From sequence record PV435126.1: a stretch of 64,000 bases of DNA, one strand, 5' to 3'. The position numbers and the translations under genes are program-made. The DNA is from Escherichia phage EPFV3-03/2025. Below, in pieces: positions 6,560 through 24,028 of the stretch (position 1 is its first letter; every line of letters starts with the position of its first letter). The notes below the pieces were generated by a model. That model was not told the origin of the DNA and did no database searches. It saw only the letters and a list, made by a program, of their open reading frames with translations.

Positions 6560-6751
6560 ATGACAGCAGAAGAAGTTAAAAAAGTACTGGCGGTACTGCG
6601 TTATCATAATCATTGCAAGGTGAAGAATGATCCTGATTATCTTGATTCATCCCTTGAAGAGGATACACTACAAGCCATAAGCAACATGCAAGAATTGCTT
6701 AAGCGTATGACAGAGAAAAACCGACCGGACTATATAGGCGAAAAAGTATAA
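6560..6751 (+). CDS. hypothetical protein (63 aa)
   Basis: ORF with GGTG RBS, followed by terminator. Confidence 0.5.
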   Translation: MTAEEVKKVLAVLRYHNHCKVKNDPDYLDSSLEEDTLQAISNMQELLKRMTEKNRPDYIGEKV

Positions 6752-10691: not shown

Positions 10692-10907
10692 TCAGTCCAG
10701 CGGTTCATCCTCTACTTCACTGAAATCAATGTTCATGGTCTCTTCCCAACCATCGATCTCAGCACAAGAGTGGAGTTCTTTAGGGTTTACTCCCAAAGCC
10801 TCAGCAACAGAGTCTATATTTAACACCTCTGGCAGGTATGATTCATCGAATTCAAGGTAAATCAGGCCACGAGTGTTGTCAGCTCCACCAAATATTTCTA
10901 TCTTCAT
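10692..10907 (-). CDS. hypothetical acidic protein (71 aa)
   Basis: ORF, MKIEIF start; last gene of - strand block. Confidence 0.5.
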   Translation of the reverse strand: MKIEIFGGADNTRGLIYLEFDESYLPEVLNIDSVAEALGVNPKELHSCAEIDGWEETMNIDFSEVEDEPLD

Positions 10908-12210: not shown

Positions 12211-12263
12211 TTCTGATCTTCTCCATAGATAGTAAAAAGAGGGGCCAAGACCCCTCTTCGTTG

Positions 12264-12915: not shown

Positions 12916-13004
12916 AACACACAGATAGCGCTAAAACGGATAAGGCCATCATTAAAGCTTCAGTAAAATCAGTCATTCCTCACCTCTTGTTAGTAACTAT
13001 ACTA

Positions 13005-13268
13005 TCATTTATCTTCGCCGTCAAGAACTTTTTTAAATATCTCAGGAATATCTCCTGTTCTTAGATAGCTCATGACCTCCCAAGGTTTCCACTTGAACTT
13101 CTTGCACAGTAAGGCAGCCGAGATCGTCTCGTTGCGAAAAGAAAGGATATTAATATCCCACTCTGAGAACCCCAATTTCCGAAGAGTGGCTATAGAAATC
13201 CTCACAGCAACCCAACAAGAGAGGCACGCAACAAACGCCACTGCCACAACCCACATCAGGATGTTCAT
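13005..13268 (-). CDS. hypothetical membrane protein (87 aa)
   Basis: N-terminal hydrophobic helix ILMWVVAVAFVACLSCWVAV. Confidence 0.5.
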   Translation of the reverse strand: MNILMWVVAVAFVACLSCWVAVRISIATLRKLGFSEWDINILSFRNETISAALLCKKFKWKPWEVMSYLRTGDIPEIFKKVLDGEDK

Positions 13269-13357
13269 ACAGCCCCCTTAATGAAATACAAGGCATAGTG
13301 TTAAGGTTGCTACCCAGCAAATAATTAACAGTGCCGTTGCAACCTTGGCAAGATTTA

Positions 13358-13645
13358 TCATAGTGTCTCTAAAATTTCATACCCTTCGGGTCGGAAAACA
13401 AGCCACTCAGGTGCTCCATTTGGTCGATACGCTTTATACAGAACAACCTGATCTCGGCACATGCACATGGCTACATAGTTTTCATCAACACCTGCCTCCT
13501 GCATTGCATCTTCTTCTCCGGCAACAGCCTTGCTTACAACTTCCTTGGTAGGCAGGTGGGCGATCAGCTCGTCACCATCGTTAATTCCAAAATGACTGAG
13601 TTCTCCATTGGTATCTTTAATCTTGATCTTAACCAAATCTTTCAT
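13358..13645 (-). CDS. small acidic protein, paralog family B (possible member)
   Basis: Stop/start coupled with next gene; C-terminal EGYEILETL tail. Confidence 0.5.
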   Translation of the reverse strand: MKDLVKIKIKDTNGELSHFGINDGDELIAHLPTKEVVSKAVAGEEDAMQEAGVDENYVAMCMCRDQVVLYKAYRPNGAPEWLVFRPEGYEILETL

Positions 13646-13974
13646 TAGTCTTCCTCCAGGTTCAAAGGTCCTAAGATTTCATATGCTAGATTAGAAGTTA
13701 CCAGAGGGTCTTCTGCATCTTTAGTATTATACCATCCGTGAATAACCAGAGTCCCACTTTGCTTCATGTCTAACTGGAACTGTTCTGCCGTTTCCTCATC
13801 CATCTCCAAGATCTCCATGAGGTATTTGATGTTAGGAAGGTATGCAGCTGTTACAGTCCCCTCTACCAGGCCTTCAGGCCAACCTACATCCGGATGACAA
13901 GTAGGGACCAGAGAGGTCAGCTTGATAGTGTATGCTTTTTCTGCACGAGCCTTCAGTAACGGATCAATTTTCAT
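13645..13974 (-). CDS. small acidic protein, paralog family B
   Basis: Coupled start/stop; C-terminal LAYEILGPL...EED. Confidence 0.55.
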   Translation of the reverse strand: MKIDPLLKARAEKAYTIKLTSLVPTCHPDVGWPEGLVEGTVTAAYLPNIKYLMEILEMDEETAEQFQLDMKQSGTLVIHGWYNTKDAEDPLVTSNLAYEILGPLNLEED

Positions 13975-14324
13975 TATTCTTCCTCCTCTTCGGTGCCTGC
14001 TTCCAGTAGTAAGTTAAGAACATCTTCAGCAGAAGGTTCGTAGAACTCTTGGCCTTCGTTGTCGATGATGCGATAGTCATCACCCCGAATAATCAGAGGA
14101 TCGTCATCAAAACCTTCAAGACCTTTAACAACGACAACACGGTCGATTGCCATCATTGTAAGAACTTTATCGACATCTTCCTCTGCTACACCATACTGCA
14201 GCAGAATGTCTTTGGTAGGAGGGACAGCATCCACCACAACACCGTTACCAAAACCTTCCGGAAGTTTAGCTAAAATATCTTCCGGAACCACATTCATATC
14301 AAAACCTGTGATCTCTACTTTCAT
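13974..14324 (-). CDS. small acidic protein, paralog family B
   Basis: LPEGFGNG motif shared with 14325-14585 and 15746-16015; poly-E C-terminus. Confidence 0.55.
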   Translation of the reverse strand: MKVEITGFDMNVVPEDILAKLPEGFGNGVVVDAVPPTKDILLQYGVAEEDVDKVLTMMAIDRVVVVKGLEGFDDDPLIIRGDDYRIIDNEGQEFYEPSAEDVLNLLLEAGTEEEEE

Positions 14325-14585
14325 TTACAGAACCTCTTCGTCAACTACTTCATAAAAATGGCTTGGGATTGCAATGGCGTTCTCGCCTTCACCTAAGAAC
14401 ACTGTCCCACTAACGATTAACATTAGAAGAACGTCTGCGATACCTTCCTCGGGGACGTTGCCAAAACCTTTAATCAGCTCGTAGGTTGGAAGATTTACCT
14501 CTAAGATGTCACCATCTTTGGAGCGGAAATCAACACCATCCTGAATCTCTGCCGTTTCAAGGTTTTTCAATTTAATCTTCATCAA
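14325..14585 (-). CDS. small acidic protein, paralog family B
   Basis: MKIKL start; KGFGNVPEEG and FYEVVDEE motifs shared with 15746-16015. Confidence 0.55.
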   Translation of the reverse strand: MMKIKLKNLETAEIQDGVDFRSKDGDILEVNLPTYELIKGFGNVPEEGIADVLLMLIVSGTVFLGEGENAIAIPSHFYEVVDEEVL

Positions 14586-14661
14586 TCAGTCTCCTGTCTT
14601 GTTAAGATGAAGGTATTATTGCACACAGGGTTGGTGTTGTCAACACCTGTGTGGAATAAAA

Positions 14662-15057
14662 TTACTGAAACAGTGCAGATAAATTACCTTCTGGTGGGAA
14701 CTTATCTGCCAAGAACGGAGTCAGAACAGTGGCCTTCTGAAGATCTGGAGTCCACTCGTTGTTCAGAACATCCCAGTAGTACGCAATGTTGCTGTGTGGG
14801 TGCCGCATTACGAACTTTTTCCCTTCGTAGTCAGTTGAAACCTCTACAGAAGAAATAACAACAGAATCTTCAAGAGTTTCTTCATAGAAAGATCCACCCT
14901 CGAATTTCCAACGAGATGCAAGAGCTCCTGCCTTAAACGCTGCAGATAACGGACTGTCGGCAAGAACATACATTTCTTGCACTCTGTCGCTACGATCTTT
15001 GCTTCTTACGTTGTATACAGTATCTGAGCTATACTCAACACGGTATAGACTTACCAT
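14662..15057 (-). CDS. hypothetical protein, paralog family C (131 aa)
   Basis: HPHSNIAYYWDVLNNEWTP resembles HPDSRVKHYWNARTKTWTP in 16860-17258. Confidence 0.55.
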   Translation of the reverse strand: MVSLYRVEYSSDTVYNVRSKDRSDRVQEMYVLADSPLSAAFKAGALASRWKFEGGSFYEETLEDSVVISSVEVSTDYEGKKFVMRHPHSNIAYYWDVLNNEWTPDLQKATVLTPFLADKFPPEGNLSALFQ

Positions 15058-15416
15058 TACCGCACCTCCTCAATAACTTCCACATCTGAACCTACCACAA
15101 ATGCAAAAGGGCAGGTTTCATGAAAGACATCCGGATCGCCGCCAAGCTTGCTAACTATTTCTCCACCACTAATAAACACAAGCTCACCGATATTCATCAG
15201 ATTGCTGAAATAGTATCCATAATGATTAAAGAATGCAGCAGGGTCAGGCAGACTAGTAGCCTCAAGCTCTACATCGGTTGAGATTACTTTCTTATCATAC
15301 CCTCTGGCCTTTTGAGATGCAAGATCTGCAGAATCCTCAGGCGACCGGAGATGCACAGGAATTGTTTCACCAATAAAGCGTACTTTCATATTCTCACCCA
15401 ACAACCATAGCTTCAA
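15057..15416 (-). CDS. small acidic protein, paralog family A
   Basis: LVFISGGEIVSKLGG and C-terminal VEVIEE resemble 17271-17742 and 21168-21401; start probably at internal MKVRF. Confidence 0.5.
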   Translation of the reverse strand: MKLWLLGENMKVRFIGETIPVHLRSPEDSADLASQKARGYDKKVISTDVELEATSLPDPAAFFNHYGYYFSNLMNIGELVFISGGEIVSKLGGDPDVFHETCPFAFVVGSDVEVIEEVR

Positions 15417-15657
15417 AAGGGGTCATAAACGAATAAACAGCATTATCATCTGCTTCAGGAAATGCCCCCAAAGACTTCATGTCTGAGCCCTTGACAAATA
15501 CAAGGTTCTGATCAAAAGCTTCTTGTGGATCAATCCGATACATATTTCGTAGGGTATCACTTACCTCATCATCAAGAGGCGAGTATGCTGTGCACGTTTT
15601 TCCAATCAAGCTTTGAGAATCAGGGTATCCACCTGAAGTTTTAAAATAAACAATCAT
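15394..15657 (-). CDS. small acidic protein, paralog family A
   Basis: LVFVKGSDMKSLGA motif. Confidence 0.5.
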   Translation of the reverse strand: MIVYFKTSGGYPDSQSLIGKTCTAYSPLDDEVSDTLRNMYRIDPQEAFDQNLVFVKGSDMKSLGAFPEADDNAVYSFMTPFEAMVVG

Positions 15658-15745
15658 ACAGTATCACCTCTGGTAAGAGATGGGGATTCCTTTCCCACAA
15701 ATAATTACAAACCTTTCTTGTCGAGGAAGTATGGCTAACCCAAGA

Positions 15746-16015
15746 TTACTCCTCTACAACCTCATACACATCCGGAGTTACAATCAACTCTTCTCCGTTG
15801 CCTGGAGCAACAAACACTACCAAACCTTCCGGTGTGTGCTTTTTAGCCATCTCGATGACATCTTCTCGCAGAGCTGGCTCCATCAAATCAAAACCTTCAC
15901 CCAGAGCATCACGAACCACCTTCATGTAGTCCACTGGTTGTGCTTCAACGATCATGCCTTCAACCAGTCCGCAGTTTTTGTCTGCCAGCTCAGTTTTGAA
16001 TAATTTAATTTTCAT
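15746..16015 (-). CDS. small acidic protein, paralog family B
   Basis: MKIKL start; GEGF motif; C-terminal DVYEVVEE. Confidence 0.55.
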   Translation of the reverse strand: MKIKLFKTELADKNCGLVEGMIVEAQPVDYMKVVRDALGEGFDLMEPALREDVIEMAKKHTPEGLVVFVAPGNGEELIVTPDVYEVVEE

Positions 16016-16152
16016 TTAGAGGTCTCCTCAATTATTTGATATTAATAGCCGTAACCTAACACATTAACTACAACTGCGATTGCAAACATAATTTCAAAGC
16101 ATGCAATCTCTACATTTGGGACTAATTTCTTAATCATACCCATTGTAGCACC

Positions 16153-16470
16153 TCAATCCCAAAAGTCAATCTTTACTTTACCTTTTCCCTTACCTTTCTT
16201 TCCACCGCATTTAGCCAACTGGCGTGCTGCAACATCCACCATACGGTCAGTTGCCTCGTAAGCATCGCTACCTTTAGCTTTGGCGATAACTTCTTTCCCA
16301 GAATTGTCAAAAATAAAAGCCATAACTTCCTGGTGATCATTTTCAACTTTTACACTCACACGTGCATAGTTGGCAGATGGGTGCAAACGCTCCAGTTTGG
16401 ACATTTTGTGGGAAATGAAAGACACCATACCTTCAGTGATCTCTACGTTGCCAGTGATTTCAATCTGCAT
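16153..16470 (-). CDS. hpf: ribosome hibernation promoting factor / RaiA-like protein
   Basis: MQIEITGNVEITEG...KLE...VKVE and ...AKGSDAYEA...ARQLAK follow my recollection of bacterial HPF/YfiA (MQLNITGNNVEITEAL...; AEGQDMYAAIDGLIDKLARQL); Lys/Gly-rich tail. Confidence 0.75.
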   Translation of the reverse strand: MQIEITGNVEITEGMVSFISHKMSKLERLHPSANYARVSVKVENDHQEVMAFIFDNSGKEVIAKAKGSDAYEATDRMVDVAARQLAKCGGKKGKGKGKVKIDFWD

Positions 16471-16551
16471 AACGTGCTCCTTTTAAAGAAGAGGGAACCA
16501 AACCCTCTTTGAAAATAATGATACTAAAGATCAAATGTTGTGTCAACAGTT

Positions 16552-16842
16552 TTACAGCTTGTCGTCGATAGTTTTTAAAATATCTACTGCAAGATCTGCC
16601 ATTTTACGAACATACTCTGCAAACTCAACAGGATCCTTGATCAATGAGTTCACAGGGTCGTACCCTAGAGCGTTCAAAATGGCTGCAGCATCTACAACCT
16701 TCTCATCATTTGCGAAGATCTCTCCGTCAAACTTGTAGGTCCATTTTGAGTCAATCTTGGCAGGGAAGGATTGGTCAACGCTTGTTACACCATCCTTTTT
16801 AAACGCTCCGGGGTTATCAGTGTCCAGAACTAAATCCATCAT
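16552..16842 (-). CDS. hypothetical protein (96 aa)
   Basis: ORF in array. Confidence 0.5.
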   Translation of the reverse strand: MMDLVLDTDNPGAFKKDGVTSVDQSFPAKIDSKWTYKFDGEIFANDEKVVDAAAILNALGYDPVNSLIKDPVEFAEYVRKMADLAVDILKTIDDKL

Positions 16843-16859
16843 GTTAGTACCTCACTGTT

Positions 16860-17258
16860 TCAGTTTAGCTTTTCTTCAACAACCCCATAACTTGGGGCAG
16901 AGTCAAGAGCTTTCTGGTTTAAAAGTGGCGTAGCAGAATCTGCAAACGGTGTCCAAGTTTTTGTTCTGGCATTCCAGTAATGCTTCACTCTAGAATCTGG
17001 ATGCACTATAACAAAAACTTTTTCACTTGTCAACACATTAATTTCTTCCACACCCTTGCTGATAATTTCTCCGTCATATCCTCCGGTCTGGTATCCTTCG
17101 TACCAGGTTCTTGCATAGGCATAGCCAGCCTGCCAGCATGCAGCCTCCTCCGAGGTGGAGACTACGTAGAAGTCTTTCTCAAATTCTGGGATACGCCCTT
17201 GCTTTACGCTCCAAGCTCCGCGAATTTTCATTGTAACTTTGAACAGTTTGTTTTTCAC
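16860..17258 (-). CDS. hypothetical protein, paralog family C (132 aa)
   Basis: Shares YW-x6-WTP region with 14662-15057. Confidence 0.55.
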   Translation of the reverse strand: MKNKLFKVTMKIRGAWSVKQGRIPEFEKDFYVVSTSEEAACWQAGYAYARTWYEGYQTGGYDGEIISKGVEEINVLTSEKVFVIVHPDSRVKHYWNARTKTWTPFADSATPLLNQKALDSAPSYGVVEEKLN

Positions 17259-17270
17259 AACGGTTACCTA

Positions 17271-17525
17271 TTACAGCTCTACAATATCTGCATCTGACCC
17301 TGCCCCAAAGGCATAATAGGACTCTTTCCCGAAATAATATTCAGGTGCACCAGCGGCGATCAGGTCTGATCCTAAGATAAACACCACGTTGTGGCCTACA
17401 TAACTATGATGTTGCCGCACAGGATCATCCCACGGTAACCCTTCAAAGTATACCGCAGGAACGACCTTTCCCTTCAGGAAGGATTGTCCCAAGTAGACGT
17501 TAGAATCAAGAATTTTAACCTTCAT
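17271..17525 (-). CDS. small acidic protein, paralog family A
   Basis: MKVKILDSNVYLGQ...GKVV...ILGSDLIAAGA closely matches 17515-17742. Confidence 0.6.
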   Translation of the reverse strand: MKVKILDSNVYLGQSFLKGKVVPAVYFEGLPWDDPVRQHHSYVGHNVVFILGSDLIAAGAPEYYFGKESYYAFGAGSDADIVEL

Positions 17526-17742
17526 GATCGTCCTCCACTATCTCTACATCCTCACCTAGGGCAAAGTTGTAGGTCCACTGACTGTCAAAGCAGTCCTGAG
17601 ATGCACCAGCGGCAATAAGATCTGCTCCTTTTATTTTTAAAAGGTCAGGGTAATCTTCGTTAGGGACAGCAGTAAACACTTTTCCTACTAAAGGCTCCTG
17701 ACCAATATAGAAGCTTGAATCTAAAACTTTAACTTTCATCAA
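17515..17742 (-). CDS. small acidic protein, paralog family A
   Basis: MKVKVLDSSFYIGQ...GKVF...IKGADLIAAGA; adjacent tandem duplicate of 17271-17525. Confidence 0.6.
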   Translation of the reverse strand: MMKVKVLDSSFYIGQEPLVGKVFTAVPNEDYPDLLKIKGADLIAAGASQDCFDSQWTYNFALGEDVEIVEDDHEG

Positions 17743-18026
17743 CGGTCTCCATCAGGTGGTTGTGGGACGTAAACACTGTTACGAATATCGTCCGCAGTAT
17801 AGTAATAAGTGTCTCCAACCCTATCTCTGGCTGCAATGTACTCTGCTATACCAATAAGTGCCATTGATTTGGTGGCGTATCTTCCCAACTCGTTAGCTCC
17901 CCAGTAGAATTTAGACCAATAGGGAATAAGACCGAACAAATATACCTTTTGACGAACTTCCCAGTAAGTGCCTTTCCCGACAAGTTTAAACTCGACTTCA
18001 CCACTGTTAATCTTTTTCATTATCAA
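17739..18026 (-). CDS. hypothetical protein (95 aa)
   Basis: Coupled ORF. Confidence 0.5.
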   Translation of the reverse strand: MIMKKINSGEVEFKLVGKGTYWEVRQKVYLFGLIPYWSKFYWGANELGRYATKSMALIGIAEYIAARDRVGDTYYYTADDIRNSVYVPQPPDGDR

Positions 18027-18319
18027 TCTCCCTCCACCGTGGTCGGATTGTCAGTAAGAAATTGAGCATTAGCTGGAGGCACACCTGACATTTTCCACAC
18101 AACCATAAGTTTGTAACCCGGAACCCTATTAAGTGCAGATCGAGTAGAGTTTGTGCACGTATACTTTCGCTTTCCAAACCCGTTCTCCATCATAATCCAG
18201 TACCCAGTATCTTTGTCACCAGGTATCGGTAGACCACCTTCATCAACCCACTGAATGGACCACGGCACGATGGCTACAGCTTTATATTTAAACTTTTTAA
18301 ACCACTCAAAAAGTTTCAT
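18023..18319 (-). CDS. hypothetical protein (98 aa)
   Basis: Coupled ORF. Confidence 0.5.
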   Translation of the reverse strand: MKLFEWFKKFKYKAVAIVPWSIQWVDEGGLPIPGDKDTGYWIMMENGFGKRKYTCTNSTRSALNRVPGYKLMVVWKMSGVPPANAQFLTDNPTTVEGD

Positions 18320-18414
18320 AATTCAGCCCCGCATAGACATAATCACTATAAACAGGCAAATAATAAATCCGAATGCCACGCCACCCATAAACGTTAATAT
18401 TGATGCAATCATAG

Positions 18415-18600
18415 TCAATCAGCCTCGCTTGGCAACTCTTCTACCTTAACATGCCGAAAAGTGTTACCGTAATGGTTGATCCATGACATCAGCTCGCTTT
18501 CTTGCTCTTCCTCTGGGATGAACTCTCGAATGCTGACAAGTTTTAAGAAAACCCAATCACAATCTGCACCCATTCTACCAGACAGGCAATAGTGCTTCAT
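18415..18600 (-). CDS. hypothetical protein (61 aa)
   Basis: ORF in array. Confidence 0.4.
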   Translation of the reverse strand: MKHYCLSGRMGADCDWVFLKLVSIREFIPEEEQESELMSWINHYGNTFRHVKVEELPSEAD

Positions 18601-18618
18601 AAAACCCTCCCGCCTGGT

Positions 18619-18813
18619 TTAGAATATTGCTTCTTCCATTGCACCTGAGAGCAACAAAGAGGTGATCTGGCTAACATTCATCTCAGACTCTACTTCCTCC
18701 CCTTTGAAAGGTTCGCGGCAGAATAGGACTGTTTCAGGACTTTTACTTCGAACAATATAATACAAATCATTCAATGTGTTGTAGTAATAAGTGTTAAAAC
18801 GTAAGTTTTTCAT
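18619..18813 (-). CDS. hypothetical protein (64 aa)
   Basis: Coupled ORF. Confidence 0.45.
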   Translation of the reverse strand: MKNLRFNTYYYNTLNDLYYIVRSKSPETVLFCREPFKGEEVESEMNVSQITSLLLSGAMEEAIF

Positions 18814-19097
18814 TTTCTAGTCCCCTTCTTAGATTTTTGTGTAGAAACGCTTTCTGCAATACGAGACAAACGTTCTTCTGAAGCCTTGCCTATTCCAGGT
18901 TTTTTGAGTGGATTATCTTTATGACCACAATCCAATTGGATATTGGATACCTCTCCAACCTTGTAAGTCAATTCTAGCAAAAGGTTGTCGTCCTTGTCAA
19001 ATGTTCTTACGATAAATTTTTTATCGTTCTCCTGAACTTCATATCTGGTACCTGCAGTATACAGCATGGTGCCATCAGCATAGGATATCCAGATCAT
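18810..19097 (-). CDS. hypothetical protein (95 aa)
   Basis: Coupled ORF. Confidence 0.5.
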   Translation of the reverse strand: MIWISYADGTMLYTAGTRYEVQENDKKFIVRTFDKDDNLLLELTYKVGEVSNIQLDCGHKDNPLKKPGIGKASEERLSRIAESVSTQKSKKGTRK

Positions 19098-19459
19098 TGA
19101 GCCTCCTTCTGCTGCAACAGCATTAACTCTTTGTTAGAGATCTTTACTGCTGTTTTTATTGTTCCGTCTTTACGGAACCACGACCAGAACTCTACAGTGT
19201 CCCCACTATCAAGCAAAGCATACCCGTGGTAGAAGTCTTTGTCCTTAGACAGTTTCTCATCTATGTCTGCATCGACACATTCGTGATCCATAGCATTTTG
19301 CCTGAATGCATCGGTTATGCCAATGCACGCCTTGCTCTCAAGACTGGTATATCCGGTATCTTTTAATTCGGTTTCCCAAACCCAGTATCCTGCAAAAGCT
19401 ACGACAGTTACCAGCCCCATAGCAGCTACCAACTTTAATACCGATTTAATCTTTGCCAT
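19094..19459 (-). CDS. hypothetical exported/membrane-anchored protein (121 aa)
   Basis: N-terminal hydrophobic segment LKLVAAMGLVTVVAFAGYWVW. Confidence 0.5.
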   Translation of the reverse strand: MAKIKSVLKLVAAMGLVTVVAFAGYWVWETELKDTGYTSLESKACIGITDAFRQNAMDHECVDADIDEKLSKDKDFYHGYALLDSGDTVEFWSWFRKDGTIKTAVKISNKELMLLQQKEAQ

Positions 19460-19519
19460 TCTCTCTACCTCTTTCTTAACTTATTTAACTATGGCACATC
19501 CTTTGTGCCTCATTGCACA

Positions 19520-19981
19520 CTACTTAAACAACAATTCAAAATAGTGAAAAATTAACAGAAGTTGAATTACGCCCAGCACAACGGCAAGTATGTTAATCTT
19601 AGAATCAAAAAACTTCTTAACTTTTACTCTAAAAGGTTCCTTAATGTCCTTTACGATCCTATCTATAGATGACCTCATATCTCTGATTACCATCCTGAAC
19701 ATTAAAGACGGATGATCCTTCTCTGTAACGGAATCGAAAACATACTCTCTTTGATCATAAGGGCCGCCAGCTCTGCGTATTAACCTCTCCACAGAGACCT
19801 CGAACGTCACACCTGTAACGTAATCATCTATGACAAGTAGTGACGGGTCTTTACCATCAAGAGGCATCAAAGTTATCTTTCCAGATTTTGTTAAAATTTC
19901 TCCTTTTTCAAGTAAGGTGTACCAATGCTCTCTGCCAAGGCTGTTGAGGCACGTTTTTACATATTTAACAAACATCGTCAC
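19520..19981 (-). CDS. hypothetical protein with C-terminal TM helix (153 aa)
   Basis: C-terminal ILAVVLGVIQLLLIF. Confidence 0.5.
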   Translation of the reverse strand: MTMFVKYVKTCLNSLGREHWYTLLEKGEILTKSGKITLMPLDGKDPSLLVIDDYVTGVTFEVSVERLIRRAGGPYDQREYVFDSVTEKDHPSLMFRMVIRDMRSSIDRIVKDIKEPFRVKVKKFFDSKINILAVVLGVIQLLLIFHYFELLFK

Positions 19982-20181
19982 CCCTCATCGCACGTCTGAT
20001 ATAACCACTCTATGAAATCTTGATACCATTCGCCCTCTGAGCGCTCCGTAGGCCAATAATCTTCACCCTCTCGTGCATTAAAATCTGAGTATTCAACTTT
20101 CCACTCCTTTACCAGCTCGTGGAGAAGGTTTTCAGCCTGCTCTAAAGATTTATTTTTTACCATTGCTGTCTCCTTTTTCAA
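19978..20181 (-). CDS. hypothetical acidic protein (67 aa)
   Basis: Coupled ORF. Confidence 0.45.
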   Translation of the reverse strand: MKKETAMVKNKSLEQAENLLHELVKEWKVEYSDFNAREGEDYWPTERSEGEWYQDFIEWLYQTCDEG

Positions 20182-20382
20182 GATAGTTATACATCAGAAC
20201 TGCACCACCTAAGATGGCTACCAGTAACAATATCCCAGATAGCATCTCAATAAACATGGCTTGAAACACTGAAAGGTCTCCCTAAATTAACGCACCATTT
20301 TAAATACATGCTCTTTTCCCATAAAGGTGCCTGGCTAAGATCTGCGTAGAACGCAATCTCTTTAAGAACAGTATAGATAGTT

Positions 20383-20610
20383 TTAGGTGCGGTCTCCATC
20401 CCTACTCTCCTTCCGGATATTCTTGTAGTAATCGACTAGGCACATTATTACGATGAAGATAACAACAGGCCAAAAAGGTGCAGCAGTGATGATGGTGATA
20501 AAATCATCAAACTTCACCCTTCGTCTGGACACGATGCATATACCTGTCAAGAATACCGCTGTTATAACGGATATTACCAAGTAACCTATTAGCACAACAT
20601 TTATACTCAT
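20383..20610 (-). CDS. hypothetical membrane protein (75 aa)
   Basis: Two hydrophobic helices. Confidence 0.5.
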   Translation of the reverse strand: MSINVVLIGYLVISVITAVFLTGICIVSRRRVKFDDFITIITAAPFWPVVIFIVIMCLVDYYKNIRKESRDGDRT

Positions 20611-20640
20611 TAGCCCTCCCTTTGTAGGTTAAATTTTATA

Positions 20641-21171
20641 CTACAGATGGTTGCTTATGGTGTCAAGAAAATTATCCCGTTCTTTCTTGGAGTTTTCACG
20701 GGTGTAGCTGAAAAACATATCTAGAATAACCTTATTGATATATTCCAGCTCCTCTGTGTTCAGGTACTTAGCAGGATCTACAATGACATCCCAAGTCTCA
20801 TACAGACCGCACTCATGATAACCCCAACGCTGCTCAATTGTCAAGCTGAGCGGCAAATCTTTACCGTCACAAACAACCTTCCATCTACAAATGCTGGTAT
20901 CTGGGCACACCTGTGTACGGTATACCTGTACAAAATCCAATCTGAATTTGAGGTACTCGTCATACAATTTAAGCACAAAGCTCTCGATTTGTGGAGACAC
21001 TTTTGCAGCAAACTGTGCGTATTTATACTTGCACTGGATGATCTTTCTGCGTTTTGCAGTTAAATTTTTTGCAGCCAGTTGTTCTTCAGTGTATCTCCAC
21101 CGATCAACAAACGCAACAGGGTCTTTGTCCCCATAAAGGTCTTCCCAGTTAATCAGAAGCATACCTGTCAC
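20641..21171 (-). CDS. hypothetical protein (176 aa)
   Basis: ORF. Confidence 0.5.
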   Translation of the reverse strand: MTGMLLINWEDLYGDKDPVAFVDRWRYTEEQLAAKNLTAKRRKIIQCKYKYAQFAAKVSPQIESFVLKLYDEYLKFRLDFVQVYRTQVCPDTSICRWKVVCDGKDLPLSLTIEQRWGYHECGLYETWDVIVDPAKYLNTEELEYINKVILDMFFSYTRENSKKERDNFLDTISNHL

Positions 21172-21401
21172 TCCTCCACAACTTCAAGACCTTTACCGCC
21201 TCGCTCTGGCAGATTACTTAAAGACAGGTAATACGTATAGTCAGGAGAGATCCTGCCAGACTCTGCACCTGCAGATAGTAAATCTTTTCCCTTAACCATG
21301 ACAACATTATCGTTTGCAGATAGTCGTTTTGCTTCCACAATTTTACCAACGCAGTCAACCAAGGAAGGGTACCCTAAATCTGTAAGAAATTTAACTTTCA
21401 T
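21168..21401 (-). CDS. small acidic protein, paralog family A
   Basis: MKVKFL...GKIV...MVKGKDLLSAGA...LEVVEE. Confidence 0.55.
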   Translation of the reverse strand: MKVKFLTDLGYPSLVDCVGKIVEAKRLSANDNVVMVKGKDLLSAGAESGRISPDYTYYLSLSNLPERGGKGLEVVEE

Positions 21402-21440
21402 GCTACCTCCTACTTCTACCGTCCCTGGTAAGATAAATTA

Positions 21441-21839
21441 TTACTGAACAAAGCGCGGAGCTGGGAAGGATAACTCTTCTAAAGAGAAGATTTCATTCCC
21501 CACAATCCATGTTGCAGGATCATCTGGGTTGACTGGATAGATAATCATCACCTCGTCAGTGTTACATACCCGCTTTTTACCTGTGGAGTCATCAGCAACC
21601 AGCATGCGCGGTTCTTCAGAAATGCACAAGTATCCTCCTCGGCCCACTGTTCCTTCCACAGGATCTTGTCCTTTGATCACGATGATTATCTTCTCTCCTG
21701 AGGCGATATTACCTTGCACACTCACCGTTTGACCAACCTTGGATGTGCCAATCTTAGTGACTTCGAACATTACATCCCGAATTACTGTTGCATAATCGCC
21801 AGACACTTTCTTACCTTCTTTAGTGATCTCAATCTTCAT
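21441..21839 (-). CDS. hypothetical protein (132 aa)
   Basis: ORF; MKIEIT start. Confidence 0.5.
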   Translation of the reverse strand: MKIEITKEGKKVSGDYATVIRDVMFEVTKIGTSKVGQTVSVQGNIASGEKIIIVIKGQDPVEGTVGRGGYLCISEEPRMLVADDSTGKKRVCNTDEVMIIYPVNPDDPATWIVGNEIFSLEELSFPAPRFVQ

Positions 21840-22075
21840 ACACTGGGCTCCTTAAATGAATCTATGTAATCAATTAAATCCCAAGCATCCCTATGACCTG
21901 TCAGAGGGTATACTTCTCCAAGAGGGATCATAGCAATAAGTCTATCAAAAACCCAGTCTGGACGCAACATTTTATGATGATATTCCCACTCACCTTCTAC
22001 AGACTTTTTCTGAGTGATCAGAATCTCTGTGTAGTGTTTTGCCTGTCTTGAGTAGATTGAAAATGACTTGTACAT
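21836..22075 (-). CDS. hypothetical protein (79 aa)
   Basis: Coupled ORF. Confidence 0.5.
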   Translation of the reverse strand: MYKSFSIYSRQAKHYTEILITQKKSVEGEWEYHHKMLRPDWVFDRLIAMIPLGEVYPLTGHRDAWDLIDYIDSFKEPSV

Positions 22076-22978: not shown

Positions 22979-24028
22979 TTAAGCTTCTTCGACAATTCCT
23001 GCACCCAGGATTTTTTCATTGAGCTCTTTTGCTGTTTTAATAATATTGTCCACCAGACGCTTGCGGGTCTTATCTTTAACCTGAACTTCTTCACCTCCGT
23101 TCAGGGTGGTTTTCAATTGGGACAAAATGTCCTGAAGCTCTACCACAGAGAATCGCTGCAGATCTTCCGAGGTAATCTCACCAAGTGCAATCTTAACGGT
23201 CTCACCGCTCTCCATCTGTAGATTCAGGAACACAGTGTGAACATCACCTTTCACACCATTTGCTTTTGCAGACTCAACAGCATGAACCAGCTCGTCCAGA
23301 GATGTGCATTGGTGAATCTCTGGCAGGCCTGCTTCACCTAGCACACCTTCTTCATCACTTTTTGCCAAAAGCTTTTTCGGTTTCTGTCCATTCTGAATGC
23401 GCTGAATGTTTTCATCGTCCAGAATGATAGCACCAGTTCGAGATGCCAGCTCTTCTCCATCTAACCACACTTCGCCACCAGCTGTGATGGATGCGATTTC
23501 ATCTTCTGTTAACACCCCACCGTAGTATTTTTCAATCAGGCGTTCAAAACGTTTCTTCCAGTAGTTGATCTGGGTATTCATGTTCACACCGTTACCATAG
23601 GTGCCACCTTGATAGTAGTGGAACATAAATTCTGTGTCCGGAGCTACAGTTCGTTCTTTGCAACCCAGCCATAAGATTGTTCCTGCCGAGCAGCACATCC
23701 CTTCAGCGTGTACAACAACGCTTGCCTGAGACTCGCGGAATGCCTGCAAATACGCCATAGCAATGTGAACGCAACCACCGGGGCTGTTAATGATTACACG
23801 GATACTTTCTTCTGGCTGTGCCATACGAATTGTTTGCAAACGGGACATATGATCCTGCAAATCTTCAAGATCGTCAATATAAAGAACGTGGTCAACAACA
23901 GGTGTTGGGTAGCTGTATGTTTCCATAATACCACCCGGCATACCAAACATTTTGTTACTCATAGGTTCGAAACCGTTCTGTTTTTCTTTCATGCCGTGTA
24001 CCATGGTGCTGCGAGGTGTTAAATTCAT
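22979..24028 (-). CDS. ClpP-like serine peptidase (S14/S49 family) with C-terminal extension
   Basis: INSPGG, MCCSAG and FHYYQGG motifs parallel ClpP INSPGG / GQAASMG / HQPLGG; about 130 extra C-terminal residues. Confidence 0.65.
   Translation of the reverse strand: MNLTPRSTMVHGMKEKQNGFEPMSNKMFGMPGGIMETYSYPTPVVDHVLYIDDLEDLQDHMSRLQTIRMAQPEESIRVIINSPGGCVHIAMAYLQAFRESQASVVVHAEGMCCSAGTILWLGCKERTVAPDTEFMFHYYQGGTYGNGVNMNTQINYWKKRFERLIEKYYGGVLTEDEIASITAGGEVWLDGEELASRTGAIILDDENIQRIQNGQKPKKLLAKSDEEGVLGEAGLPEIHQCTSLDELVHAVESAKANGVKGDVHTVFLNLQMESGETVKIALGEITSEDLQRFSVVELQDILSQLKTTLNGGEEVQVKDKTRKRLVDNIIKTAKELNEKILGAGIVEEA

What the first reader, a model, noticed from the sequence alone, without database searches (positions are those of the whole stretch)
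13358..21401. Three interleaved families of diverged small acidic paralogs in one coupled operon array
At least 12 of about 30 small - strand genes fall by eye into three families. Family A (15057-15416, 15394-15657, 17271-17525, 17515-17742, 21168-21401) shares MKVK-x-[LF], G-K-[IVT] and [VI]-x-[FVM]-[IV]-x-G-x-D-[LMI]-x-x-[AL]-G-A. Family B (13645-13974, 13974-14324, 14325-14585, 15746-16015, perhaps 13358-13645) shares MKIK starts, a GFG/GEGF core and F/V-YE-[VI]-[VL] acidic tails. Family C (14662-15057, 16860-17258) shares HP-x-S-x-[IV]-x-[HY]-YW-x6-WTP. Tandem, fast-diverging arrays like this are typical of host-takeover or anti-defence loci, and this one also contains the HPF homolog.
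Basis: seen in the sequence. Interest (0 to 1): 0.8.

Follow-up and report, generated by a model that had tools for sequence, protein, structure and literature searches.

The report
Three small-protein families in rV5-like phage
Twelve of about 28 small genes in an accessory region of an rV5-like E. coli phage form three real but very old families, two of them predicted to be SH3-like beta-barrels, and their function is still unknown.

Summary
The window is a Vequintavirus (rV5-like E. coli myophage), about 94% identical in DNA to EmilHeitz and rV5. All three proposed families are real.

- **Family A (5 genes):** three members are obvious (BLASTP E=2e-14 and 9e-7). The other two are recovered by an independent profile at 25-27 bits, against 11 bits for the best of 4,500 shuffled decoys. 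A belongs to phrog_5009, of unknown function. About 90 clusters exist in metagenomes and one copy sits in a lambdoid prophage.
- **Family B (5 genes):** invisible pairwise, and split over five PHROGs. Leave-one-out profiles (up to 29.8 bits) and profile-profile comparison (92% and 87% probability) confirm it.
- **Family C (2 genes):** E=1.4e-9, and both match phrog_7379.

The "fast-diverging" reading is not supported. Each paralog has a 1:1 syntenic ortholog across the genus and in a distant relative, with dN/dS of 0.02-0.17. The array is tightly coupled but carries internal sigma-70-like promoters. A natural BASEL isolate, Bas59, lacks 3.8 kb including two A genes and one C gene. It plates like its relatives on 11 defence systems.

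Most likely these are dispensable acidic binding proteins. Function is untested.

The parts
21168..21401 (-). Family A member (77 aa, pI 5.4), rV5 ORF127 ortholog. It is the lineage closest to the lambdoid-prophage homolog P0029 (44% id).
   Evidence: phrog_5009 E=8.5e-36; BLASTP to 17515 E=9e-7; closest relatives
17515..17739 (-). Family A core member (74 aa, pI 4.05), rV5 ORF140. This is the protein modelled, as an SH3-like five-stranded barrel.
17271..17525 (-). Family A core member (84 aa), rV5 ORF141. It has a short insertion between strands 2 and 3.
   Evidence: BLASTP to 17515 E=2e-14, 42% id; phrog_5009 E=1e-31
15394..15657 (-). Distant family A member (87 aa), rV5 ORF147, with a probably helical insertion between strands 2 and 3.
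   Evidence: independent HMM 26.6 bits, E=1.3e-6, vs decoys <=11.2; phrog_5009 E=1.4e-4; the BFVD model of an 87-aa Shigella phage CM1 protein, probably this gene's ortholog, matches the A model at TM 0.79
15057..15389 (-). Distant family A member (110 aa), rV5 ORF148, with a long insertion. Similarity is mainly in the C-terminal half.
   Evidence: independent HMM 24.9 bits, E=4.4e-6; hhalign to 17271 95%; own PHROG 13661
15746..16015 (-). Family B member (89 aa, pI 4.4), rV5 ORF146. It is the most peripheral member.
   Evidence: leave-one-out HMM 20.1 bits, E=1.6e-4, top hit of 4,590
14325..14582 (-). Family B member (85 aa), rV5 ORF150. First gene after the internal promoter.
   Evidence: hhalign to 13974 92% over 84 columns; subfamily HMM hits 13974 at 15.6 bits
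13974..14324 (-). Family B hub member (116 aa, net charge -22, acidic tail), rV5 ORF151. This is the protein modelled.
13645..13974 (-). Family B member (109 aa), rV5 ORF152.
   Evidence: hhalign to 13974 87% over 67 columns; leave-one-out 14.2 bits
13358..13645 (-). Family B member (95 aa).
   Evidence: leave-one-out HMM 21.6 bits, E=6.3e-5
16860..17258 (-). Family C member (132 aa, pI 7.8), rV5 ORF142. It is absent from the divergent relative L010 and mostly deleted in Bas59.
   Evidence: phrog_7379 E=4e-74; BLASTP to 14662 E=1.4e-9
14662..15057 (-). Family C member (131 aa, pI 4.85), rV5 ORF149.
   Evidence: phrog_7379 E=4e-66; hhalign 97%
16153..16470 (-). Short ribosome hibernation factor (HPF/RaiA-type) homolog lying between the family blocks. 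It is not a family member.
   Evidence: PF02482 E=1.8e-12
16518..16546 (-). Sigma-70-like promoter (TTGACA-17-TATCAT) upstream of HPF. Equivalent to rV5 P144.
14615..14643 (-). Sigma-70-like promoter (TTGACA-17-AATAAT with extended -10 TG) upstream of the four-gene B tandem. Equivalent to rV5 P150.
12237..12258 (-). Intrinsic terminator (AAGAGGGG...CCCCTCTT followed by a T run) that ends the unit containing the B tandem.
   Evidence: annotated in rV5 and HdK5
16946..20768 (.). Segment naturally deleted in phage EduardKellenberger (Bas59). It holds two A genes, most of one C gene and about 14 other small genes.
   Evidence: blastn breakpoints with a 15-bp overlap; annotation

Best explanation
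This is the genus-specific accessory end of the long leftward early/middle gene block of an rV5-like phage. It lies downstream of the nucleotide-metabolism, PhoH and ClpP genes.

Shown:
- Twelve of its roughly 28 small genes are ancient, strongly diverged homologs in three families.
- A and B are predicted to be single-domain SH3-like beta-barrels. B, and three of the A members, carry an insertion in the same loop between strands 2 and 3.
- The genes are tightly packed and follow near-consensus sigma-70-like promoters.
- Each paralog is individually conserved under purifying selection.
- Part of the array can be lost without loss of viability.

Inferred: these are non-enzymatic, mostly acidic binding modules made by host RNA polymerase early in infection. 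Each paralog has specialised on a different partner, most likely a basic or nucleic-acid-binding host protein. Together they tune host physiology in ways that matter in nature but not on laboratory K-12.
For: Families.

No enzyme signature: no Pfam or NCBIfam hit for the A and C genes or for the three B genes scanned in both libraries; none of the ten A and B genes has a significant Pfam hit.

Modular binding-domain behaviour of A:
- About 90 clusters at 50% identity, mostly stand-alone proteins of 65-80 aa.
- Tandem fusions of 2-3 domains, and one fusion to DUF3310.
- Two adjacent copies in an unrelated small phage (L015), and two separate copies in a 42-kb phage (L019), one of them in the replication module.
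- A single copy between the Q antiterminator and the holin of a lambdoid prophage.

Acidity: A pI 4.05-5.4; B pI 4.05-4.6 with net charge -8 to -22.

Promoters and terminator.

Purifying selection: dN/dS 0.02-0.17. 1:1 orthologs in L010.

Accessory status: absent from Seunavirus. The Bas59 deletion is viable. No A, B or C product is named among the rV5 virion proteins in that paper's main text; I did not open its MS table (PMC3606486).
Against: - No experiment or characterised homolog links any member to a partner or phenotype.
- Early timing is inferred from promoter consensus only.
- Family C was not modelled, and one C member is not acidic.
- Strict conservation of all ten A and B genes across the genus shows they matter, but gives no clue to what they do.
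Confidence: 0.45

Rival explanations
1. Anti-defence array. Each paralog inhibits a different bacterial immune system, for example acting as an acidic DNA mimic or as a direct inhibitor.
For: The proteins are small, acidic, accessory and genus-specific. One A homolog sits in the classic moron slot between Q and the holin of a prophage. Part of the array is dispensable.
Against: - Vequintavirinae are described as exceptionally susceptible to RM systems (PMC8594841).
- Orthologs are stable and under purifying selection, with almost no presence/absence variation. Typical anti-defence islands vary much more.
- There are no Pfam hits to known anti-restriction families.
Confidence: 0.2
2. Translation or transcription modulators. 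The SH3/KOW-like barrels act together with the co-transcribed HPF homolog on ribosomes or RNA polymerase.
Against: Acidic proteins are poor RNA binders. There is no KOW Pfam match. The fold similarity is generic. In other phages A occurs without HPF.
Confidence: 0.1
3. Replication or morphogenesis accessory factors, such as chaperone-like or scaffolding helpers, rather than host-directed proteins.
For: One remote A homolog lies between a primase-polymerase gene and AAA_24/helicase genes. The array follows the DNA-metabolism genes.
Against: Part of the array can be deleted in a viable phage. It is absent from the sister genus, which has the same core machinery. No family member is named among the virion proteins in the rV5 paper's main text.
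Confidence: 0.1
4. The similarities are chance or compositional, so there are no real families.
For: B pairs are not significant by BLASTP. Many genes share MK starts and acidic tails.
Against: Composition-matched shuffled decoys score far below true members. In the profile-profile comparison, 16 of the top 17 of 903 pairs are within-family.
Confidence: 0.02

Closest known systems
PHROGs phrog_5009 (with phrog_13367 and phrog_8603), phage proteins of unknown function
   Same: Three A genes match at E=1e-31 to 1e-38. All 57 remote homologs tested, plus the window's 17515-17739, match it. Size and the N-terminal MKVK...GK...G-x-[DE]-L-I-x-x-G-A...EVVE pattern are the same.
   Different: 15394-15657 matches only weakly (E=1.4e-4). 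15057-15389 is filed in its own PHROG (13661). Linking these two to the family is new here. The family has no described function, structure or Pfam entry.
SH3-like small beta-barrel fold (SH3, KOW/Spt5-NusG, PsaE, PhnA C-terminal domain)
PHROGs phrog_7379
   Same: Both C genes match end to end.
   Different: It has unknown function. In my searches it was found only in Vequintavirus-like phages.
Acidic DNA-mimic anti-restriction proteins (Ocr, ArdA) and the SH3-topology DNA mimic CarS of Myxococcus (both recalled from my own knowledge, not tested)
   Same: They are small, strongly acidic, early-expressed proteins. CarS shows that an acidic SH3-like barrel can mimic DNA.
Accessory ('moron') genes between Q and the lysis cassette of lambdoid prophages
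   Same: One A-family gene (P0029, 75 aa, 44% identical to 21168-21401) occupies this slot in 13 of 5,426 complete E. coli genomes.
   Different: It is a single copy there, with unrelated neighbours. It sits in a late-transcribed position rather than an early block.

Membership tests
phrog_5009 (family A) | Significant full-length match to the family HMM | tested here: met
   17515 E=1.1e-38, 21168 E=8.5e-36, 17271 E=1e-31, 15394 E=1.4e-4. 15057 gave no PHROG hit to 5009, but scored 24.9 bits (E=4.4e-6) with an independent family HMM.
Family B (proposed here; five separate PHROGs) | Each member is retrievable by a profile built only from the other four subfamilies, and scores above composition-matched decoys | tested here: met
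   29.8, 21.6, 20.1 and 14.2 bits for four members, against decoys of at most 12.2 bits. 14325 is marginal in this test (11.4 bits) but reaches 92% hhalign probability with 13974.
phrog_7379 (family C) | Full-length HMM match and mutual similarity | tested here: met
   E=4e-66 and 4e-74; BLASTP E=1.4e-9
SH3-like beta-barrel fold | Five-stranded barrel that superposes on SH3/KOW domains | tested here: met
Eukaryotic-type SH3 or KOW sequence families | Pfam SH3_1/KOW profile match | tested here: not met
   No significant Pfam match for any A or B member (one sub-threshold LRAT hit, E=0.061, below the cut-off), scanned at E<=0.1
Single A+B superfamily | Significant profile-profile similarity between A and B | tested here: inconclusive
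   hhalign gives only 19% probability, over the N-terminal 26-29 columns. A-B pairs rank higher than background (median rank 182 vs 515), but A-C and B-C pairs are also somewhat elevated. The two families share a predicted fold and insertion site.
Ocr/ArdA-type anti-restriction DNA mimics | Protection of the phage from type I RM | tested here: not met
   Literature only. Vequintavirinae are described as 'exceptionally susceptible' to RM (PMC8594841), and BASEL EOP data show strong restriction by EcoRI, EcoRV and EcoCFT_II. There is no Pfam match.
Rapidly evolving arms-race gene array | Elevated dN/dS, or frequent gain and loss among close relatives | tested here: not met
   dN/dS is 0.02-0.17 for all 12 genes. 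Orthologs are 1:1 in four genomes and in L010. Exceptions: one C gene is missing in L010, there is one natural 3.8-kb deletion, and there is one chimeric A gene (P0014).
Single operon | One promoter and no internal promoters or terminators | tested here: not met
   Consensus-like internal promoters at 16546 and 14643, and a terminator at 12237-12258. rV5 annotation agrees. These are consensus matches, not mapped transcription start sites.
HPF/RaiA (PF02482), for the neighbouring gene 16153-16470 | Pfam match above the gathering threshold | tested here: met
   48.3 bits against a cut-off of 23.7, E=1.8e-12

The most novel reading that the evidence does not exclude
Families A and B, ten genes in all, are one superfamily of SH3-like barrels that diversified inside the phage into a panel of specific protein binders. 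Variable insertions sit in one loop, and each copy neutralises or redirects a different host factor. This would be a phage-encoded 'binder library', comparable in logic to the multigene host-range families of large eukaryotic viruses. The twice-repeated A-A-C gene order would be a trace of segmental duplication.
Probability: 0.2. Interest if true: 0.65.

Novelty: new member of a known kind. Interest (0 to 1): 0.4.

Why it matters
rV5-like phages are among the most commonly isolated E. coli phages and are candidates for therapy, yet about a third of their genes are unnamed. This work collapses 12 orphan genes into three families. It assigns a predicted fold to ten of them. It also points to a ready-made natural deletion mutant, Bas59, which turns an anonymous gene block into a tractable problem.

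Family B's unity, and the two distant A members, are not captured by PHROGs, Pfam or NCBIfam. The practical value is moderate, because no function is established and the pattern of old paralog families in a phage accessory region is itself common.

Tried and rejected
- **Single-sequence tblastn:** an A member against 50,697 phage records found only Vequintavirus. A remote A homolog as query found Vequintavirus plus two Vibrio phages.
- **Word-indexed protein searches:** B and C returned only orthologs.
- **IMG/VR scans:** The scan with C found only close Vequintavirus loci.
- **PDB sequence searches:** profiles of A, B and C gave nothing below E=0.1.
- **NCBIfam:** no hits.
- **A-B homology:** not established by profile-profile comparison, even with a deep A profile.
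- **A possible fourth family** (16552-16842 vs the C-terminus of 20641-21171; BLASTP E=0.025): it did not hold up once a divergent ortholog was added (score fell from 21.6 to 18.1).
- **10692-10907 as a sixth B member:** 12.8 bits in one leave-one-out run, which is not above the decoys.
- **Hairpin in the HPF 5' leader:** unremarkable, z=-0.8.
- **Sister genus Seunavirus** (PVP-SE1, EC152): the position downstream of ClpP holds different genes, with no A, B or C.
- **Literature:** no transcriptome or functional data for these genes.


Full report
**Source and setting.** The 9-kb region matches 121 phage records at about 94% nucleotide identity (EmilHeitz/Bas49, rV5, LL12 and others), so the window is a Vequintavirus, an rV5-like E. 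coli myophage. The finding lies on the - strand. It is downstream of ribonucleotide reductase, PhoH, a ClpP-like protease (22979-24028) and a methyltransferase. This is the distal part of what the rV5 paper calls the transcription unit of genes 82-163 (PMC3606486). Every gene there is annotated 'hypothetical' except a ribosome hibernation factor. I confirmed that gene, 16153-16470, as PF02482 at E=1.8e-12.

**Family A.** I extracted 90 non-overlapping - strand ORFs and compared them all-vs-all.
- BLASTP alone supports an A core: 17515/17271 at E=2e-14 and 17515/21168 at E=9e-7.
- Three A genes match phrog_5009 strongly and 15394-15657 matches it weakly.
- A search of 1.84 billion representative proteins with an A profile found 91 clusters at E<=1e-3. 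Most are stand-alone proteins of 65-80 aa. Two very long repeat proteins among them are probably spurious.
- I built an HMM from these remote domains, excluding the orthologs of the two doubtful members and anything BLAST-similar to them. It scored 15394-15657 at 26.6 bits and 15057-15389 at 24.9 bits. The best of 4,500 composition-matched shuffles scored 11.2 bits. Family A therefore has five members.

**Family B.** Pairwise BLASTP shows nothing (E 0.18-0.23), and each member sits in its own PHROG.
- Each subfamily HMM's best non-self hit was another B member in four of five cases.
- Leave-one-out profiles retrieved the omitted gene as the top hit in four of five cases, at 29.8, 21.6, 20.1 and 14.2 bits. 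Decoys reached at most 12.2 bits.
- After adding orthologs from a divergent relative (L010), hhalign gave 13974/14325 92% over 84 columns and 13645/13974 87%. Sixteen of the top 17 of 903 gene pairs were within-family.

**Family C and the rest of the window.** The C pair has BLASTP E=1.4e-9 and 97% by hhalign, and both genes match phrog_7379. No further A, B or C copies exist anywhere in the window.

**What the proteins look like.**
- AlphaFold with the family alignment gave a confident model for A (17515-17739): pLDDT 92.6, five strands and one short helix.
- It gave a moderate model for B (13974-14324): pLDDT 74, five strands with helices inserted between strands 2 and 3, and a disordered acidic tail.
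- Foldseek against viral models matched the A model to an 87-aa Shigella phage CM1 protein, probably the ortholog of 15394-15657 (TM 0.79). It also matched uncharacterised small proteins of T4-like and other phages.
- The insertions of A members 17271, 15394 and 15057 fall in the same loop as B's helical insertion.
- Sequence-level A-B homology is not established: hhalign gives 19%, over the N-terminal hairpin only.
- A and B are acidic (pI 4.05-5.4; B net charge -8 to -22). One C member is not acidic, at pI 7.8.
- No Pfam, NCBIfam or PDB sequence match exists for any of the three families.

**Expression signals.**
- Gene junctions are mostly -4 to +5 nt. The B tandem has gaps of -1, -1 and 0.
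- Near-consensus sigma-70-like promoters lie at 16546-16518 and 14643-14615. They correspond to rV5's annotated P144 and P150.
- A strong intrinsic terminator lies at 12237-12258.
- The array is therefore several coupled units rather than one operon. Early timing is an inference from promoter type.

**Evolution.**
- Within the genus every array gene has an ortholog at 83-100% amino-acid identity.
- A metagenomic relative, L010, has a ClpP only 68% identical. It keeps all five A and all five B genes in the same order, at 29-74% identity. It has only one C gene, and an extra gene between C and B.
- dN/dS is 0.02-0.17 for all twelve genes, similar to ClpP at 0.03 and HPF at 0.03.
- The duplications are therefore old and every copy is maintained. 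I found no sign of an arms-race signature.
- The sister genus Seunavirus has different genes at this position and lacks A, B and C.
- The A paralogs are not obviously monophyletic. 21168-21401 is closer to a metagenomic protein (51%) and to a lambdoid-prophage protein (44%) than to its genomic siblings (31-33%).
- That prophage gene sits between the Q antiterminator and the holin. It occurs in 13 of 5,426 complete E. coli genomes.
- Elsewhere A occurs as two adjacent genes in a small SU10-like phage and twice in a 42-kb phage, one copy in its replication module. It also occurs as two or three fused domains in single proteins, and once fused to DUF3310.

**A natural experiment.**
- Phage EduardKellenberger (Bas59) lacks window 16946-20768. 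The junction has a 15-bp overlap. The deletion fuses the 5' part of 20641-21171 to the last 86 nt of the C gene 16860-17258.
- It removes two A genes, one C gene and about 14 other small genes.
- In the BASEL raw data, its efficiency of plating on six RM and five Abi systems, and its host range, match those of Bas57, whose array is intact, and Bas58, whose array I did not check.
- The BASEL authors describe the whole group as exceptionally RM-susceptible.
- These genes are therefore dispensable on K-12. They have no visible role against those eleven systems. This weakens, but does not exclude, an anti-defence role.

**Interpretation.** The best reading is a set of old, individually conserved, mostly acidic SH3-like binding modules. 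They are probably made early and are dispensable in the laboratory, and I infer that each has its own partner. Anti-defence, translation-linked and replication-accessory roles remain possible at lower probability. Function is unknown for all homologs found.

Noticed in passing
window 16946-20768; L014 (MZ501061) 6622-6636: BASEL phage EduardKellenberger (Bas59) carries a natural 3.8-kb deletion of about 17 array genes. The junction has a 15-bp overlap and creates a fusion ORF that is annotated 'putative glycosidase'. Its defence-sensitivity profile in the BASEL raw data resembles that of Bas57 (intact array) and Bas58.
   Followed up: yes
window 14662-15657 and 16860-17739: The gene order A-A-C occurs twice: 17515, 17271, 16860 and 15394, 15057, 14662. 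This suggests an old segmental duplication of a three-gene block. 15057's best cross-block partner is 17271, the gene in the same position (hhalign score 45.3).
   Followed up: partly
protein P0014 (metagenome contigs of about 133 kb), corresponding to window 17271-17739: This is a 70-aa chimera of the N-terminal half of the 17515 gene and the C-terminal half of the 17271 gene, joined at the shared DLIAAGA motif. It looks like unequal recombination between the tandem A paralogs that collapsed two genes into one.
   Followed up: partly
L007/L008 8001-8228 (E. coli chromosomes): A single family A gene (75 aa) lies among about ten small unnamed genes between the Q antiterminator and the holin of a lambdoid prophage. 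It is present in 13 of 5,426 complete E. coli genomes.
   Followed up: partly
phage collection hits to window 13000-22000: Eighteen GenBank records named 'Campylobacter phage' (MG0656xx, host C. jejuni) are about 94% identical to this E. coli Vequintavirus region. They are probably mislabelled or come from contaminating coliphages.
   Followed up: no
window 20641-21171: This gene is annotated 'putative glycosidase' in the BASEL genomes. It has no Pfam match, and its PHROG has unknown function (phrog_13467). The name appears unsupported.
   Followed up: partly
L010 11092-11388: The divergent relative carries an extra 98-aa gene (PF27050, Phage_P22_Y8K6) between the C gene and the B tandem. In place of the second C gene it has an unrelated 96-aa gene.
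   Followed up: no
window 19520-19981: This is the ortholog of rV5 gp133. It was reported as one of the predominant proteins in rV5 virion mass spectrometry, although it lies in this non-structural array (phrog_7821, 'virion structural protein').
   Followed up: no
window 10692-10907, 21441-21839, 16153-16470: Several non-family genes also begin MKIEI, MQIEI or MKVEI, like family B. The shared start is therefore a weak family marker. It may reflect a common first beta-strand or a translation-initiation preference.
   Followed up: no
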